Shown piece by piece: positions 1 to 5,396 of a stretch of 5,396 nt of DNA; the first letter of the stretch is position 1, and every line of letters starts with the position of its first letter. The notes beneath the pieces were generated by a model. That model was not told the origin of the DNA. It did not search any database and worked only from the letters and a program-made list of their open reading frames with translations. The translations under genes were made by a program, and so were the position numbers. The stretch comes from a virus (lineage: Duplodnaviria > Heunggongvirae > Uroviricota > Caudoviricetes), in IMG/VR virus record IMGVR_UViG_3300029184_000066, positions 1-5,396 of that record; one strand, given 5' to 3'.

Positions 1-75
1 CTAAATCGTGCACAGGCTCTGGCGAAGATCGCAGAAATTAAAGCTAAGTTCGGACTGAAAGGAGCAAGTGTATGA
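1..75 (+). CDS. P: Replication protein P (lambda P-like helicase loader), C-terminal 24 codons only; 5' end lies outside the window
   Basis: Frame 1 from position 1 translates to LNRAQALAKIAEIKAKFGLKGASV with a TGA stop at 73-75, matching my recollection of the lambda P C-terminus. The stop overlaps the ren ATG (gtATGa). The ORF track omits it because it has no start in the window. Confidence 0.55.
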   Translation, partial: LNRAQALAKIAEIKAKFGLKGASV

Positions 76-374
76 CGGGCAAAGAGGCAATTATTTATTA
101 CCTGGGGACGCATAAGAGCTTCTGTGCACAGGACGTTGCCGCGGTAACAGGTGCAACCGTAACCAGCATAAATCAGGCTGCGGCTAAAATGGCGCGGGCA
201 GGAATCCTGGTCGTTGATGGTAAGGTCTGGCGAACGGTGTATTACCGGTTCGCTACCAGAGAAGAACGGGAAGGAAAGGTGAGCACGAATCTGATTTTTA
301 AGGAGTGTCGCCAGAGTGCCGCGATGAAACGGGTATTGAGGGTATATAAAAGAACATCAATGGGTACACAATGA
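72..374 (+). CDS. ren: Ren protein (lambda Ren-like, Rex-exclusion resistance), 100 aa, apparently intact
   Basis: The translation MTGKEAIIYYLGTHKSFCAQDVAAVTGATVTSINQAAAKMARAG... closely resembles lambda Ren (96 aa) as I recall it. It sits directly downstream of P as in lambda, with an ATGA start/stop overlap. GC content is near 50%, like the phage backbone. Confidence 0.7.
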   Translation: MTGKEAIIYYLGTHKSFCAQDVAAVTGATVTSINQAAAKMARAGILVVDGKVWRTVYYRFATREEREGKVSTNLIFKECRQSAAMKRVLRVYKRTSMGTQ

Positions 375-391
375 TGAAACAGGTGAGTTGA

Positions 392-426
392 GTTCAAACT
401 GTAGTACAATTCTCTCCAGTTTGAAC
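392..426. repeat. Perfect 10-bp inverted repeat (GTTCAAACTG / CAGTTTGAAC) with a 15-nt spacer, in the ren-emrE intergenic region / emrE leader
   Basis: Direct reading: 392-401 gttcaaactg is the exact reverse complement of 417-426 cagtttgaac. It lies at the transition from ~50% GC phage sequence to AT-rich cargo and 16 nt upstream of the emrE start. No U-tract follows, so it is not a classical intrinsic terminator. Confidence 0.5.
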
Positions 427-441
427 AGGAAAGAATATGTT

Positions 442-774
442 ATGAACCCTTATATTTATCTTGGTGGTGCAATACTTGCAGAGGTCATTGGTACAACCTT
501 AATGAAGTTTTCAGAAGGTTTTACACGGTTATGGCCATCTGTTGGTACAATTATTTGTTATTGTGCATCATTCTGGTTATTAGCTCAGACGCTGGCTTAT
601 ATTCCTACAGGGATTGCTTATGCTATCTGGTCAGGAGTCGGTATTGTCCTGATTAGCTTACTGTCATGGGGACTTTTCGACCAACGGCTGGACCTGCCAG
701 CTATTATAGGCATGATGTTGATTTGTGCCGGTGTGTTGGTTATTAATTTATTGTCACGAAGCACACCACATTAA
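442..774 (+). CDS. emrE: EmrE, small multidrug resistance (SMR) family proton-coupled efflux transporter, 110 aa
   Basis: From the ATG at 442 the translation MNPYIYLGGAILAEVIGTTLMKFSEGFTRLWPSVGTIICYCASFWLLAQTLAYIPTGIAYAIWSGVGIVLISLLSWG...STPH is near-identical to E. coli EmrE as I recall it, including the essential Glu14 (LAEVIG). It has four hydrophobic segments and an AGGAAAG Shine-Dalgarno 8-9 nt upstream. The 128-aa version in the ORF track (start 388) is an upstream in-frame extension. Confidence 0.9.
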   Translation: MNPYIYLGGAILAEVIGTTLMKFSEGFTRLWPSVGTIICYCASFWLLAQTLAYIPTGIAYAIWSGVGIVLISLLSWGLFDQRLDLPAIIGMMLICAGVLVINLLSRSTPH

Positions 775-803
775 AAATAATTTCTTTTAAAAGACTGCAA
801 TAT

Positions 804-837
804 GGCGGTTCATATCTTTACATGGGCCGCTTTTGTT
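804..837 (+). terminator. Candidate rho-independent terminator downstream of emrE
   Basis: The stem 804-813 (ggcggttcat) pairs with 822-831 (atgggccgct) using GC pairs plus G-U wobbles, around an 8-nt loop. It is followed by ttttgtt and further T-runs (831-856), about 30 nt after the emrE stop. Confidence 0.4.
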
Positions 838-1018
838 AATGTTTTTAGTTTTTGTGTATTCTTTTGTGCCTTCAAGATTATTGCGTAAGCAAATTGCAAT
901 ACGATTATTGTTGTATATTCAAGATAGTGTGATCGTAATTGTCTTTTTAAATAAAAATTAAACAAAAATTATATCTCACCACTAAGGTTTATAAAAGCAT
1001 ACGTTAGCAGGTGTCACC

Positions 1019-2545
1019 ATGAAAAAAGCCATAGCATATATGCGATTTTCATCACCAGGTCAGATGTCTGGCGACTCATTAAACCGACAGAGAAGACTTA
1101 TTGCTGAATGGTTAAAGGTAAATAGTGATTATTATCTTGATACCATAACATATGAAGATTTAGGATTAAGTGCATTCAAAGGAAAGCATGCACAATCAGG
1201 AGCTTTTTCGGAATTTTTAGATGCTATAGAGCATGGTTATATATTGCCAGGAACTACATTGTTAGTTGAAAGTCTGGACAGACTTTCAAGAGAAAAAGTC
1301 GGTGAAGCGATTGAACGTCTGAAATTGATTTTGAATCACGGTATTGATGTTATAACTCTTTGCGACAATACAGTCTATAATATTGACTCTTTGAATGAGC
1401 CATATTCATTAATAAAAGCCATACTTATAGCACAAAGGGCAAATGAAGAAAGCGAGATAAAGTCAAGTCGGGTTAAATTATCATGGAAGAAAAAACGGCA
1501 GGATGCACTGGAATCAGGTACGATTATGACGGCGTCTTGTCCGAGATGGCTCTCCTTAGATGACAAAAGAACGGCTTTTGTTCCAGACCCCGACAGGGTG
1601 AAAACTATTGAGCTAATTTTTAAACTCAGGATGGAAAGGCGCTCATTGAATGCAATAGCCAAGTATTTAAATGATCATGCTGTAAAGAATTTCTCAGGAA
1701 AAGAAAGTGCATGGGGGCCTTCTGTAATTGAAAAATTATTAGCGAATAAAGCTCTGATAGGTATATGCGTACCTTCATATCGTGCAAGAGGGAAAGGGAT
1801 AAGTGAAATCGCTGGCTATTATCCCAGAGTCATATCAGATGATTTGTTTTACGCTGTACAGGAAATTCGGTTGGCACCTTTTGGTATTAGCAATAGTAGC
1901 AAGAATCCTATGCTAATAAATCTACTTCGAACAGTTATGAAGTGTGAGGCTTGTGGTAATACCATGATTGTTCATGCGGTATCTGGAAGTTTGCATGGCT
2001 ATTATGTTTGTCCGATGAGAAGATTACATCGATGTGACAGGCCATCAATAAAGAGAGATTTGGTTGATTATAATATCATTAATGAATTGCTTTTTAATTG
2101 TAGCAAAATTCAACCAGTTGAAAACAAGAAAGATGCTAATGAAACTTTAGAGTTAAAAATTATTGAGCTTCAGATGAAAATTAATAATTTAATCGTTGCA
2201 TTGTCTGTCGCGCCTGAAGTTACCGCTATAGCAGAGAAAATAAGACTATTAGATAAGGAATTACGAAGAGCTTTGGTATCATTGAAAACTTTGAAGAGTA
2301 AAGGTGTAAATTCATTCAGTGATTTTTATGCTATTGACTTAACCAGTAAAAATGGACGAGAGTTATGCCGTACACTTGCCTATAAAATATTCGAAAAAAT
2401 CATAATTAATACGGATAATAAAACCTGTGATATCTATTTTATGAATGGCATTGTTTTTAAACACTATCCTTTAATGAAAGTAATATCCGCCCAGCAGGCG
2501 ATAAGTGCTCTCAAATATATGGTTGATGGTGAGGTTTATTTTTGA
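1019..2545 (+). CDS. ybcK: Large serine recombinase (YbcK-like, DLP12-type putative recombinase), 508 aa
   Basis: The N-terminus AIAYMRFSSPGQMSGDSLNRQ carries the serine-recombinase catalytic motif (Y-x-R-x-S...Q) in a resolvase-type domain. The C-terminal half has a Cys-rich zinc-ribbon-like segment (CEACGNTMIVHAVSGSLHGYYVCPMRRLHRCD) followed by a predicted coiled coil (LELKIIELQMKINNLIVALS), the large-serine-recombinase architecture. Length and N-terminus match my recollection of E. coli YbcK (508 aa). The gene is very AT-rich, unlike the flanking phage genes. Confidence 0.85.
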   Translation: MKKAIAYMRFSSPGQMSGDSLNRQRRLIAEWLKVNSDYYLDTITYEDLGLSAFKGKHAQSGAFSEFLDAIEHGYILPGTTLLVESLDRLSREKVGEAIERLKLILNHGIDVITLCDNTVYNIDSLNEPYSLIKAILIAQRANEESEIKSSRVKLSWKKKRQDALESGTIMTASCPRWLSLDDKRTAFVPDPDRVKTIELIFKLRMERRSLNAIAKYLNDHAVKNFSGKESAWGPSVIEKLLANKALIGICVPSYRARGKGISEIAGYYPRVISDDLFYAVQEIRLAPFGISNSSKNPMLINLLRTVMKCEACGNTMIVHAVSGSLHGYYVCPMRRLHRCDRPSIKRDLVDYNIINELLFNCSKIQPVENKKDANETLELKIIELQMKINNLIVALSVAPEVTAIAEKIRLLDKELRRALVSLKTLKSKGVNSFSDFYAIDLTSKNGRELCRTLAYKIFEKIIINTDNKTCDIYFMNGIVFKHYPLMKVISAQQAISALKYMVDGEVYF

Positions 2546-2898
2546 GTAATAATCACTTTTTCAACCGTGCTATGGTATGAAAGTAAAGTAACTACTATGA
2601 TATTAACTATCGAGCAAGAATATCCCCAGGCACTCAACAGGGCGCAGGTCAACGTGAATCGGTCATGACACGACACCGATTTTGCGGAATCAATGTTGCT
2701 TATGAATACAACATCCCGCTTAGTACATGTTCAACACATCAGCAAATTTTGAACTGGGTGTGGCACTTAACTGAAAAAACATGGATGACACAAAATGTTA
2801 CTCGTCGCTTCATTGAAGTAGCTTGTGGATATCACAAGCTAGACTATCGCCAATGATATTCAATTTTTGATTTTTTAGTATCAACCTTCCATAATAAT

Positions 2899-2940
2899 GT
2901 CACCGGAGCTTGAACAACTCCGGTGACTTCTGCGCATTTA
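2899..2940. terminator. Perfect 10-bp stem hairpin (GTCACCGGAG-cttgaacaa-CTCCGGTGAC) followed by TTCTGCGCATTT; candidate tR2-like terminator or boundary element upstream of the nin operon
   Basis: Direct reading: 2899-2908 is the exact reverse complement of 2918-2927, with a 9-nt loop. The stem is GC-rich and the downstream tract only moderately T-rich. It lies at the right edge of the AT-rich cargo and 25 nt upstream of the ylcH-like start. Confidence 0.35.
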
Positions 2941-2951
2941 AGGGGACTTAA

Positions 2952-3050
2952 ATGCGACCACAATCTGAACTCCTTACCTTGTCACAGATGCAGAAATGCA
3001 CCTGCGATTCTTTGCATCCAACGTTTGACCTCTGCGGAGGTGAAGCGTGA
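2952..3050 (+). CDS. ylcH: Small ORF (32 aa, [32 protein letters not shown]), ylcH-like, first gene of the coupled nin operon
   Basis: The ATG at 2952 is preceded by AAGGGGA (2939-2945). Its stop TGA (3048-3050) overlaps the ybcN GTG start (3047-3049) as GTGA, the same 4-nt coupling seen at every downstream junction. Position and size fit DLP12 ylcH (about 33 aa as I recall). It is below the ORF-track length cutoff. Confidence 0.4.
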
Positions 3051-3502
3051 ACCTCCCACAAGACGGCATCAAATTACATCGCGGCAACTTCACCGCTATC
3101 GGTCGGCAGATCCAGCCTTATCTGGAGGATGGCAAATGCTTTCGCATGGTGCTTAAACCGTGGCGCGAGAGACGCAGTCTTTCCCAGAATGCACTCAGCC
3201 ACATGTGGTACAGCGAAATCAGTGAGTACCTCATCAGCAGGGGTAAAACGTTCGCTACTGCAGTATGGGTAAAAGATGCACTCAAACACACATACCTCGG
3301 TTATGAAACCAAGGACCTGGTTGATGTCGTAACCGGCGAAATCACTACGATCCAGTCGTTACGCCATACCTCCGATCTTGATACCGGAGAGATGTATGTC
3401 TTCCTGTGTAAGGTTGAAGCCTGGGCGATGAATATTGGCTGCCACCTGACTATTCCGCAGAGCTGCGAGTTCCAGCTGCTGCGCGACAAGCAGGAGGCGT
3501 AA
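3047..3502 (+). CDS. ybcN: YbcN-like protein (DLP12 ybcN family, reported DNA base-flipping protein; occupies the lambda ninB/orf position), 151 aa
   Basis: The translation [61 protein letters not shown]... matches my recollection of E. coli YbcN (151 aa). It has a GTG start with a strong GGAGG Shine-Dalgarno 6 nt upstream, and its stop overlaps the ninE start (TAATG). Confidence 0.8.
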
Positions 3503-3672
3503 TGGCTACACCGCTTATTCGTGTCATGAGCGGACACATCTACAGAGCACCAAATCGTCGTAAGCGTAAGCCTGAGCTGAAACCATCCGAAATACCAACA
3601 CTGCTCGGATATACCGCCAGCCTGGTTGATAAAAAATGGTTGCGACTGGCAGCAAGGAGGAACCATGGCTGA
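3502..3672 (+). CDS. ninE: NinE family protein, 56 aa
   Basis: This ORF is missing from the ORF track because it is short. Translation from the ATG at 3502 gives [56 protein letters not shown], basic and of the size and position of lambda/DLP12 NinE. It overlaps ybcN by 1 nt and ybcO by 8 nt. Confidence 0.7.
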   Translation: MATPLIRVMSGHIYRAPNRRKRKPELKPSEIPTLLGYTASLVDKKWLRLAARRNHG

Positions 3673-3955
3673 TTTGAGAAAAGCAGCGCGTGGTCGGGAA
3701 TGCCAGGCAAGAATCCCTGGCGTATGTAATGGCAATCCTGAAACGTCTGTACTGGCACATATCCGGCTGGCTGGATTGGGCGGTACCGGTATCAAACCGC
3801 CAGACCTGATTGCCACCATTGCATGTTCTGCCTGTCACGACGAAATCGACCGCCGCACACATTTTGTCGATGCTGAGTATGCAAAAGAATGCGCGCTGGA
3901 AGGTATGGCGAGAACGCAGGTTATCTGGCTGAAAGAGGGGGTAATCAAGGCGTGA
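3665..3955 (+). CDS. ybcO: YbcO-like protein (DLP12 ybcO family, putative metal-binding nuclease), 96 aa
   Basis: I place the start at the ATG at 3665, which has an AGGAGG Shine-Dalgarno 4 nt upstream. The translation [67 protein letters not shown]... has Cys/His residues spaced like a zinc site and matches the 96-aa YbcO of DLP12 as I recall it. The ORF-track version starts 13 codons earlier without a Shine-Dalgarno. Confidence 0.8.
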
Positions 3956-4314
3956 ATACTTACTACATCACACTACCCTGGCCGCCGAGCAATAACCGCT
4001 ACTACCGCCATAATCGCGGGCGCACGCACATCAGCGCAGAGGGGCAGGTATACCGCGATAACGTCGCCCGAATCATCAAAGGCTCCATGCTGGATATCGG
4101 TCTGGCTATGCCAGTGAAAATCCGTATTGAGTGCCACATGCCGGATCGCCGTCGCCGTGACCTGGATAATCTGCAAAAAGCAGCTTTTGACGCACTCACC
4201 AAAGCAGGTTTCTGGCTGGATGATGCTCAGGTCGTTGATTACCGCGTTGTGAAGATGCCCGTTACCAAAGGTGGGAAGCTGGAGCTGACCATCACCGAAC
4301 TGGGGAATGAATGA
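3952..4314 (+). CDS. rusA: RusA Holliday-junction resolvase, 120 aa, GTG start
   Basis: The sequence ...[119 protein letters not shown] is near-identical to E. coli RusA as I recall it, including the acidic catalytic cluster ([14 protein letters not shown]). The GTG at 3952 overlaps the ybcO stop (GTGA) and gives the canonical 120 aa. The upstream ATG at 3889 would add 21 residues that overlap ybcO. Confidence 0.88.
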
Positions 4315-4447
4315 TGTTTGAGTCTTATGTGGCAGAACGTCTTCGCCACCGCTGGATGCGCCTGCGCTTATATCGTTTCCCCGGTTCTGTTTTGACCGAT
4401 TACCGGATACTGAAGAATTACGCCAAAACACTGAAAGGAGCTGCCGC

Positions 4448-4451
<4 letters not shown>
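4311..4451 (+). CDS. ylcG: YlcG-like small protein, 46 aa
   Basis: This ORF is missing from the ORF track because it is short. Translation from the ATG at 4311 gives [46 protein letters not shown]. Both ends are coupled by ATGA overlaps, to the rusA stop and to the next ORF's start. Size and position match DLP12 ylcG. Confidence 0.6.

Positions 4452-5396
<945 letters not shown>

What the first reader, a model, noticed from the sequence alone, without database searches (positions are those of the whole stretch)
375..2950. AT-rich cargo block (emrE + large serine recombinase) in the phage backbone, bounded by two perfect 10-bp palindromes
Sequence from about 375 to 2950 is visibly more AT-rich than the flanking ren and nin genes, which are near 50% GC. 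It carries a drug-efflux gene and a 508-aa large serine recombinase, and both edges coincide with perfect 10-bp-stem inverted repeats (392-426 and 2899-2927). Large serine recombinases act on short, partially symmetric att sites, so this could be a self-mobilising or formerly mobile cargo module rather than core phage DNA, with the palindromes as candidate recombination sites or transcriptional insulators. Lambda itself has ninA directly after ren.
Basis: partly seen in the sequence, partly recalled or inferred. Interest (0 to 1): 0.6.

Follow-up and report, generated by a model that had tools for sequence, protein, structure and literature searches.

The report
Mosaic AT-rich cargo in prophage
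The AT-rich stretch is real accessory cargo (a drug pump gene, a recombinase gene and gene remnants) sitting in a well-used swap slot of a lambda-like prophage, but it is a patchwork of separately exchanged pieces and the two palindromes are ordinary transcript hairpins rather than its recombination ends.

Summary
Positions 365-2864 are 36% GC against about 50% in the flanks. emrE, a 508-aa large serine recombinase (ybcK) and both perfect 10-bp palindromes are present.

Comparison with about 100 related loci puts the cargo boundaries at 338-365 on the left and 2865-2867 on the right, not at the palindromes. The left palindrome lies inside the emrE module and travels with emrE, including to a ybcK-less site beside fliE. 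The right palindrome lies in conserved phage backbone and is present in prophages that lack emrE and ybcK. It occupies the position of lambda tR2.

The block is at least three independently assorting modules:
- emrE (365-782)
- ylcJ-ybcK (783-2611)
- a degraded variable slot (2612-2864), which in other phages holds ybcL-ybcM, an esterase, the defence gene BstA, or other genes

ybcK is intact and under purifying selection (dN/dS 0.06-0.09). In E. coli it was found only after ren-emrE, in phages that carry their own tyrosine integrase. No att sites were found.

Verdict: an ordinary lambdoid moron island, already annotated in K-12 DLP12. One residual lead is that YbcK-type recombinase genes may be gene-sized mobile cassettes.

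The parts
72..374 (+). ren (Ren-like exclusion protein), the last backbone gene before the cargo. Its 3' end from about 348 is an allele linked to emrE.
   Evidence: PHROG 142, E=5.6e-41. Homology to lambda, SfI, Stx1 phages and emrE-less prophages stops at 338-347.
338..365 (.). Left mosaic junction zone.
   Evidence: emrE-less loci L002, L009-L011 and lambda diverge at 338-347. The emrE module shared with the fliE locus begins at 365.
392..426 (+). Perfect 10-bp palindrome in the emrE 5' leader, ending just before the Shine-Dalgarno sequence AGGAAAG.
   Evidence: As RNA the dG is -13.4 kcal/mol, z=-1.4. It is present, with one mismatch, at the ybcK-less fliE-locus emrE. In viral contigs it is always beside emrE and the loop is invariant.
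442..774 (+). emrE, an SMR multidrug/quaternary-cation efflux gene (Glu14 present).
   Evidence: PF00893, E=2.6e-35. PHROG 1395, 'moron' category. dN/dS is 0.03 against the fliE-locus allele.
804..831 (+). Intrinsic-terminator-like hairpin with a T-run, downstream of emrE.
   Evidence: Terminator scan. dG -15.5 kcal/mol, z=-3.6. K-12-type loci have a different hairpin at the same place.
833..961 (+). ylcJ-like small ORF (42 aa), in the untranslated spacer upstream of ybcK.
   Evidence: PF23688 YlcJ, E=4.5e-19. A Rho-dependent terminator was reported in the region upstream of ybcK in K-12 (PMC4150792).
1019..2545 (+). ybcK, an intact large serine recombinase (508 aa).
   Evidence: PF00239, PF07508 and PF13408. 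PHROG 95 'integrase', E=7e-120. R9, S11, D87, R88, R91 and four Cys are invariant in 16 homologues. dN/dS 0.06-0.09.
2546..2611 (+). Conserved 3' flank of ybcK. Homology to K-12-type loci ends at 2554-2584 and to all other types at 2611.
2612..2864 (+). Degraded variable slot. 2612-2690 is a fragment of a P22_AR_C ORF. 2690-2864 is the 3' part of a 105-aa ORF, and the 63-aa ORF at 2665-2856 is its remnant.
   Evidence: The window type equals the L119 type with two internal deletions. ORFs are listed. P22_AR_C, E=1e-15.
2865..2867 (.). Right mosaic junction, the same position for every cargo variant.
   Evidence: Backbone homology starts at 2865-2867 in about 75 ybcK loci and in the ybcK-less loci L002, L003, L009-L011 and L185.
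2867..2895 (+). Conserved promoter-like element, TTGATT-17 nt-CATAAT, overlapping a short TTGAT..ATCAA inverted repeat.
   Evidence: Promoter scan. The hexamers are conserved while the spacer varies across 13 distinct versions.
2899..2927 (+).
   Evidence: With hairpin 2 the dG is -31.6 kcal/mol, z=-6.6. 93.5% of cells are paired in 14 versions. One-sided changes give U-G pairs only in the + sense. The + strand tail UUCUGCGC has no U-tract.
2933..2956 (+). Backbone hairpin 2. Its GGGA loop forms part of the Shine-Dalgarno sequence, and the ylcH-like start codon lies in the 3' arm.
   Evidence: Perfect 10-bp stem. Three pairs are changed on both sides between the window type and the other types.
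2952..3050 (+). ylcH-like 32-aa ORF whose stop overlaps the ybcN start.
   Evidence: Read from the sequence. Annotated as a 33-aa hypothetical protein at the same place in related loci.
3047..3502 (+). ybcN (NinB/Orf family), the first nin backbone gene after the cargo.
   Evidence: PHROG 72, E=2.7e-51. PF05772.

Best explanation
The block is a composite moron island in the ren|ninB slot of DLP12-type lambdoid phages. Lambda has only the tR2 terminator in this slot.

The island is made of separately exchangeable modules:
1. emrE, with its own leader hairpin and intrinsic terminator.
2. ylcJ-ybcK.
3. A further cargo slot, which in this window is a twice-deleted remnant.

Shown: the modules and their boundaries. 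Inferred: new joints arise by illegitimate recombination, and the modules then spread between phages by homologous recombination in the conserved flanks. Those flanks are ren on the left, and on the right an approximately 85-bp linker (promoter-like element plus two hairpins) followed by ylcH-ybcN.

The palindromes are transcript elements, not recombination sites. The left one is part of the emrE leader. The right one, with a neighbouring second hairpin, is a conserved + strand RNA structure at the head of the nin genes.

Inferred for ybcK: it is a functional integrase-type serine recombinase retained as an accessory gene. It is kept silent in lysogens by termination upstream and read only when the early-right operon is antiterminated. 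Its DNA substrate is unknown.
For: Composition:
- The GC shift is confirmed.

Boundaries:
- The right junction is fixed at 2865-2867 and the left junction at 338-365 in all comparisons.

Cargo variety:
- At least 9 alternative cargos lie between ybcK and the linker, among them ybcL-ybcM, an alpha/beta hydrolase and BstA (PADLOC E=3.6e-121). ybcK-less prophages carry still other cargos in the same slot.

Separate assortment of emrE and ybcK:
- emrE-ybcL-ybcM occurs without ybcK beside fliE. This was verified in 2 genomes, and at least 2282 genomes carry only that ~91%-identity allele.
- ren-emrE-esterase occurs without ybcK.

Signatures of illegitimate recombination:
- A duplicated emrE 3' end with a 15-bp exact repeat flanks the ybcK segment in L006 and phage 4A7.
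- The window carries two internal deletions relative to L119.

ybcK is not the phage integrase:
- The isolated phage 4A7 and the B-strain and O157 prophages carry the block together with their own tyrosine Int/Xis, at two different att sites.

ybcK is maintained:
- dN/dS is 0.06-0.09 and the catalytic residues are invariant.

ybcK is silenced:
- A Rho-dependent terminator lies upstream of ybcK (PMC4150792), and ybcK DNA is bound by Hfq/polyP (PMC10954037).

Hairpins:
- Folding z=-6.6. Hairpin 1 shows U-G-compatible one-sided changes in the + sense and hairpin 2 shows compensatory changes.
- Lambda tR2 occupies the same slot.
Against: - No transcript mapping was done here, so the roles of the leader hairpin, the promoter-like element and the backbone hairpins are inferred.
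- Hairpin 1 lacks a U-tract on the + strand, so it is not a canonical tR2-type terminator.
- The compensatory changes in hairpin 2 all come from one lineage, that is, one event.
- The very constant right junction, and the clean ~2.04-2.08-kb ybcK indels (against L001 and L185), could also reflect a site-specific process.
- Strong purifying selection on ybcK shows it does something, and this explanation does not say what.
Confidence: 0.78

Rival explanations
1. emrE+ybcK is one self-mobilising (or formerly mobile) element. YbcK recombines the two 10-bp palindromes, which act as its att sites or ends.
For: - An intact large serine recombinase lies inside an AT-rich block.
- Palindromes occur near both ends more often than chance predicts.
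Against: - The junctions are 27-54 bp and 34 bp away from the palindromes and on opposite sides of them.
- The two palindromes share no sequence.
- The right one is present in prophages with no emrE or ybcK. The left one is present at ybcK-less emrE loci.
- emrE and ybcK assort independently.
- The block was seen only after ren in lambdoid prophages.
Confidence: 0.03
2. ybcK, with about 0.1-0.25 kb upstream, is a gene-sized mobile cassette: a minimal TnpX/TndX-like serine-recombinase element. It inserted between emrE and the downstream cargo, and its relatives invade early genes of other lambdoid phages.
For: - Clean indels exist: 2083 bp (L004 against the fliE locus L001) and about 2.04 kb against ren-emrE-esterase L185, flanked in L006 by a 15-bp exact repeat.
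- In an unidentified enterobacterial contig (L019) and in Pantoea (L043), homologous recombinase cassettes of about 3 kb are flanked by diverged partial duplications of a phage gene: 229 bp at 82.5% identity and 380 bp at 75% identity. In each case one intact gene copy is left.
- In Atlantibacter only the recombinase gene, from -68 to the stop codon, is shared between a nin-region context and a prophage-end context next to the tmRNA gene.
- dN/dS is low.
Against: - In E. coli there is a single context across 1426 genomes.
- The right-hand boundary of the ybcK segment differs between variants: 2554-2584, 2611, about +280 and about +420.
- No conserved att-like motif was found upstream or downstream among homologues.
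- The flanking partial duplications are equally well explained by unequal or illegitimate crossover between two phages. L028 has the cassette without the duplication.
Confidence: 0.13
3. ybcK is a decaying relic of an integrase from another phage, stranded in the nin region and with no present function.
For: - Homologues sit at prophage ends like integrases.
- The host phages have their own tyrosine integrases.
- Transcription is terminated upstream in K-12.
Against: - All 6 alleles translated are full-length, and all ~80 IMG/VR loci match residues 1-508 at 97-100%.
- dN/dS is 0.06-0.09 at dS 0.12-0.18.
- The catalytic and zinc-binding residues are invariant.
- The gene is carried by isolated, viable phages.
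Confidence: 0.05

Closest known systems
DLP12 cryptic prophage of E. coli K-12, genes renD-emrE-ylcJ-ybcK-ybcL-ybcM-ylcH-ybcN
   Same: - Same gene order and about 97% identity from ren through ybcK (window 1-2584).
- Same linker and nin genes from 2865 onward.
   Different: - The window lacks ybcL-ybcM and has a 253-bp remnant of other cargo instead. This O157:H7-like arrangement covers at least 80% of the window in 320 of 5426 genomes.
- The Q gene is a different allele and is cut by an IS element.
Lambdoid phage morons and nin-region mosaicism (Hendrix/Juhala model; my own knowledge of that literature)
   Same: - Extra AT-rich genes lie between conserved backbone genes.
- emrE has its own terminator.
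- Junctions fall at gene boundaries.
- Related phages carry alternative cargos, including a defence gene (BstA).
   Different: The island is unusually layered, with three nested exchange points. It also includes an intact integrase-type serine recombinase, which is not a typical moron.
Lambda tR2 intrinsic terminator (between ren and ninB)
   Same: The position is the same: a strong hairpin immediately upstream of the NinB-family gene.
   Different: - The DLP12-type element is two tandem hairpins preceded by a promoter-like motif.
- It has no U-tract on the + strand.
- It shares no sequence with tR2.
Large serine recombinase mobile elements and phage integrases (phiC31, Bxb1 and A118 integrases; TnpX of Tn4451; CcrAB of SCCmec; from my own knowledge)
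   Same: YbcK has the three-domain architecture and the catalytic residues. Relatives sit at prophage termini.
   Different: - No att sites were identified.
- The gene is internal to a phage that integrates with a tyrosine recombinase.
- No evidence of mobility was found in E. coli.
- No PDB relative was detectable by sequence.

Membership tests
Large serine recombinase (serine integrase/transposase) | N-terminal resolvase catalytic domain with the Ser nucleophile and conserved Arg/Asp residues | tested here: met
   PF00239, E=5e-19. R9, S11, D87, R88 and R91 are invariant in 16 homologues.
Large serine recombinase (serine integrase/transposase) | C-terminal Recombinase domain plus zinc-ribbon domain | tested here: met
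   PF07508, E=2e-14. PF13408, E=8e-8. C309, C312, C331 and C339 are invariant.
Large serine recombinase (serine integrase/transposase) | Cognate att sites or element ends next to the gene | tested here: inconclusive
   No motif is shared upstream or downstream among homologues. The 10-bp palindromes belong to other modules.
Large serine recombinase (serine integrase/transposase) | Recombination activity | not testable with these tools
   Needs an in vivo or in vitro assay.
   There is a single genomic context after ren. The junctions at 338-365 and 2865-2867 are not at the palindromes, and the block splits into separately assorting modules.
   No allele with ren joined directly to the linker was found; the smallest gap is about 0.77 kb of other cargo. 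Alleles lacking only the ybcK segment do exist (L001, L185).
Phage moron | Gene(s) present between backbone genes in some phages and absent in close relatives | tested here: met
Phage moron | Deviant base composition | tested here: met
   GC 0.36 against 0.50-0.51.
Phage moron | Own promoter and terminator | tested here: inconclusive
   A terminator-like hairpin lies at 804-831. No convincing emrE promoter was found by the scan, and no transcript data were used.
SMR transporter (EmrE) | Four-TM SMR domain with the membrane-embedded Glu14 | tested here: met
   PF00893 over residues 3-94. Glu at residue 14, read from the translation.
Intrinsic (Rho-independent) terminator, for hairpin 2899-2927 | GC-rich stem followed by a U-tract | tested here: not met
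   The stem is present, but the + strand tail is UUCUGCGC. Only the - strand has 5 of 8 U.

The most novel reading that the evidence does not exclude
YbcK-family large serine recombinase genes are autonomous cassettes of about 2-3 kb that insert into early or nin regions of lambdoid phages. Some carry a copy of the displaced gene end, so the target gene stays intact. On this reading the E. coli ylcJ-ybcK segment is one fixed insertion of such a 'phage-within-phage' element.
Probability: 0.12. Interest if true: 0.6.

Novelty: already known. Interest (0 to 1): 0.27.

Why it matters
Mostly housekeeping. The analysis shows that the emrE drug-efflux gene reaches E. coli as phage cargo through a recombination hot-spot slot, which it shares with defence genes such as BstA. 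It also shows that the palindromes should not be read as att sites.

One point is worth follow-up. An intact, strongly conserved integrase-type serine recombinase sits in 26% of complete E. coli genomes and in viable phages with no known substrate. Finding its sites could reveal a second recombination system in lambdoid phages, or a new mini mobile element.

Tried and rejected
- Rfam (E<=1) finds nothing at either palindrome. The only real hit is isrC, inside the IS element.
- phmmer of YbcK against PDB sequences gives no hit at E<=0.001.
- PADLOC gives no defence-system hit for YbcK.
- A search for long direct or inverted repeats bracketing the block found only a 28-nt, 71% AT-rich pair (951-978 / 2854-2881). 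I judged this to be chance.
- Comparing the sequence 3' and 5' of ybcK homologues for a shared att-like motif found nothing above chance.
- The left palindrome pattern was scanned in IMG/VR. 109 contigs matched. Of the 75 loci checked, 73 were beside emrE, 1 was at a contig end and 1 was a chance match inside an unrelated gene with a different loop.
- Apparent 'ylcJ without ybcK' and 'emrE without ybcK' hits H60 and H72 turned out to be IS1-mediated deletions and were uninformative.
- A search for a truly empty ren|linker junction found none. The shortest gap is about 0.77 kb of other small ORFs.
Full report
**What the window is.** The window is the early-right/nin region of a DLP12-type lambdoid prophage. 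Its features are:
- ren (72-374)
- emrE (442-774)
- a ylcJ-like small ORF (833-961)
- ybcK (1019-2545)
- a 63-aa ORF (2665-2856)
- a ylcH-like ORF (2952-3050)
- ybcN, ninE, ybcO, rusA and ylcG
- a Q antiterminator gene (4448-4978)

The Q gene is cut at about 4963 by an IS3-family element, which is itself interrupted by IS30 at about 5307. The closest complete-genome matches are O157:H7-type prophages with the same arrangement. Identity over 1-4960 is 98.2%, and ybcK is identical.

**Check of the observation.**
- Composition: GC is 0.362 over 365-2864, against 0.497 upstream and 0.511 downstream. In 100-bp bins the means are 0.361 and 0.513 (p=1e-7). GC3 is 0.34 for emrE and 0.29 for ybcK, against 0.46-0.63 for the nin genes.
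- Gene identities hold.
- Both perfect 10-bp palindromes exist at the stated coordinates. There are four such palindromes in the window, adding 1266-1289 inside ybcK and 2933-2956. Dinucleotide shuffles expect 0.145 per window, with P(>=3)=0.009.
- The claim that fails is that the edges of the block coincide with the palindromes.

**Where the edges are.** I compared the window with the following:
- K-12/B-type DLP12 (L004)
- two other ybcK-bearing prophages (L005, L006)
- the isolated phage 4A7 (L008)
- O157 (L007)
- prophages without emrE/ybcK (L002, L003, L009-L011)
- lambda (L012)

I also used 80 IMG/VR contigs and 2 GTDB genomes carrying ybcK.

Backbone homology on the right begins at 2865-2867 in essentially every locus, whatever lies to its left. 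On the left, phages without emrE, including lambda, SfI and Stx1 phages, diverge at 338-347, inside the last codons of ren. The emrE module shared with a second chromosomal site starts at 365.

The left palindrome (392-426) is therefore inside the cargo. The right palindrome (2899-2927) is 34 bp inside the conserved backbone.

**The block is a patchwork.**

*(a) emrE module, 365-782 (or to about 840 including its terminator).*
- It occurs without ybcK beside fliE as emrE-ybcL-ybcM, in a prophage remnant. This was verified in strains W5-6 and APEC O1. That ~91%-identity allele is the only emrE in at least 2282 of 5426 genomes.
- It also occurs as ren-emrE-esterase in 2 genomes and in 3-4 viral contigs.

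*(b) ylcJ-ybcK module, 783 to 2584/2611.*
- It is present in 1426 genomes.
- In all 82 loci examined it follows ren-emrE, or the upstream sequence is missing from the locus or unaligned.

*(c) A further slot between ybcK and 2865.*
- It has at least nine alternative contents.
- Most variants begin with a 107-aa P22_AR_C ORF and then carry one of: a 118-, 260-, 168- or 83-aa ORF; BstA (PADLOC E=3.6e-121); or a reverse-strand alpha/beta hydrolase.
- K-12-type loci instead have ybcL-ybcM.
- The window's own 2612-2864 equals the L119 variant with two internal deletions, with junctions at about 2612 and about 2690. The 63-aa ORF is the tail of a 105-aa ORF.

**How the pieces were joined.**
- In L006 and phage 4A7 the ybcK segment is flanked by a second, partial copy of the emrE 3' end plus downstream sequence. 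The repeat is 72 bp at 71% identity, with an exact 15-bp core CATTAAAAATAATTT.
- The ybcK-less allele L185 has a single copy.
- This pattern is what an unequal or illegitimate crossover between a ren-emrE-ybcK-P22AR phage and a ren-emrE-esterase phage would leave. L185 may alternatively be a deletion between the repeats.
- Together with the internal deletions in the window, this fits the standard lambdoid mosaic mechanism. Spread would then occur by homologous recombination in ren and in the conserved linker plus nin genes. That mechanism is an inference.

**The palindromes.**

*Left palindrome.*
- It ends just before the emrE Shine-Dalgarno sequence, with the start codon 16 nt downstream.
- It folds only modestly as RNA (-13.4 kcal/mol, z=-1.4).
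- It has no T-run.
- It is found only with emrE, including the ybcK-less allele, where one arm carries a mismatch.
- I read it as part of the emrE leader. Its role is unknown.

*Right palindrome.* It is the first of two tandem hairpins (2899-2927 and 2933-2956), with a combined dG of -31.6 kcal/mol and z=-6.6. A motif TTGATT-17 nt-CATAAT precedes them; its hexamers are conserved while the spacer varies. Across 14 distinct versions:
- 95% of cells pair.
- Hairpin 1 varies on one side only, giving U-G pairs in the + sense. At one position U-G is the majority state, and it would be a C-A mismatch on the other strand.
- Hairpin 2 shows three pairs changed on both sides, but all in one lineage.
- Hairpin 2 holds part of the Shine-Dalgarno sequence in its loop and the ylcH-like start codon in its 3' arm.

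In lambda the same slot holds the tR2 hairpin with its U-tract (identification as tR2 is from my own knowledge). The DLP12-type hairpins lack a + strand U-tract, so I do not file them as an intrinsic terminator. My best guess is a structured 5' leader and translational-control element of the nin genes. A terminator or insulator role remains possible.

**ybcK.**
- It has the full large-serine-recombinase architecture, with invariant catalytic and zinc-binding residues.
- It matches the PHROG integrase family 95.
- It is under strong purifying selection (dN/dS 0.06-0.09 at dS 0.12-0.18).
- The phages that carry it have their own tyrosine integrase and excisionase, at argU or at icd. It is therefore not the prophage integrase.
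- In K-12 its upstream untranslated region contains a Rho-dependent terminator (PMC4150792).
- Its DNA is an Hfq/polyphosphate binding site (PMC10954037).
- Its overexpression raised sabinene tolerance (PMC7181518).
- I found no paper in the library that tests recombination by YbcK.

**Relatives of YbcK.** Homologues at 50-60% identity occur in other Enterobacterales, in several kinds of context:
- The very end of prophages, after tail-fibre assembly genes and next to host genes. In Atlantibacter L013 the gene ends 540 bp from the tmRNA gene. Erwinia L017 lies next to lepA, and Yersinia L015 is similar.
- The nin region of lambdoid prophages (L019, L028).
- An element with conjugation-type genes in Citrobacter (L020).
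- A locus with no phage markers detected, in Kluyvera (L021).

In L019 and in Pantoea L043 the recombinase cassette of about 3 kb is flanked by diverged partial duplications of a phage gene: the DUF1367 5' end, 229 bp at 82.5%, and the P gene 3' part, 380 bp at 75%. One intact copy is left in each case. In Atlantibacter only the recombinase gene itself, from -68 to the stop codon, is shared between the two contexts.

These facts keep alive the idea that the recombinase gene is a gene-sized mobile cassette. Against it:
- The duplications are equally explained by unequal crossover.
- L028 has the cassette without a duplication.
- No att-like motif is shared.
- E. coli shows one context only.

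**Verdict.** This is the emrE-ybcK region already annotated in DLP12, a layered moron island in a recombination hot-spot slot. The only open item of some interest is the unknown substrate of a conserved integrase-type recombinase carried as phage cargo.

Noticed in passing
window 4963-5396: The Q antiterminator gene is truncated at about residue 172 by an IS3-family element (ISEc31-like, 4963-5306). That element is itself interrupted by the left end of IS30 from about 5307. Rfam's isrC sRNA model hits 5031-5153 (150 bits) inside the IS3-family orfA region.
   Followed up: partly
window 1266-1289: A third perfect 10-bp palindrome (TTGAAAGTCT-GGAC-AGACTTTCAA) lies inside ybcK, over the codons of the conserved catalytic ESLDRLSR motif. 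It is conserved in the other ybcK alleles.
   Followed up: no
L005 6191-7120; L165: In some prophages the slot between ybcK and the linker holds BstA, an abortive-infection defence gene (PADLOC E=3.6e-121). It is preceded by a stand-alone P22_AR_C ORF that follows ybcK in most variants.
   Followed up: partly
L019 9623-9851 and 12609-12831; L043 9281-9657 and 12216-12592: YbcK-homologue cassettes of about 3 kb in other Enterobacterales are bracketed by diverged partial duplications of a phage gene (DUF1367 5' end; replication gene P 3' part). One intact gene copy remains in each case.
   Followed up: partly
L006 3766-3837 and 5839-5908 (same in phage 4A7); L185 4325-4362: The ybcK segment is flanked by a duplicated emrE 3' end with an exact 15-bp repeat, CATTAAAAATAATTT. 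Rare ren-emrE-esterase alleles carry a single copy and no ybcK.
   Followed up: yes
L001 6001-8252; L186: Most E. coli carry a second, ~91%-identical emrE beside fliE, as emrE-ybcL-ybcM in a small lambdoid remnant that still keeps a degraded copy of the linker hairpins. This is the commonest emrE context, not DLP12.
   Followed up: partly
window 4441-4452: Homology to K-12-type and many other prophages stops at 4441-4452. Those have quuD, whereas the window has a different Q family. This is another mosaic junction, at the ylcG|Q boundary.
   Followed up: no
window 2867-2886: Exactly at the right junction there is a short inverted repeat, TTGAT(N8-10)ATCAA, overlapping the -35-like hexamer. It is conserved in nearly all versions of the linker and could be a protein-binding site.
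   Followed up: no
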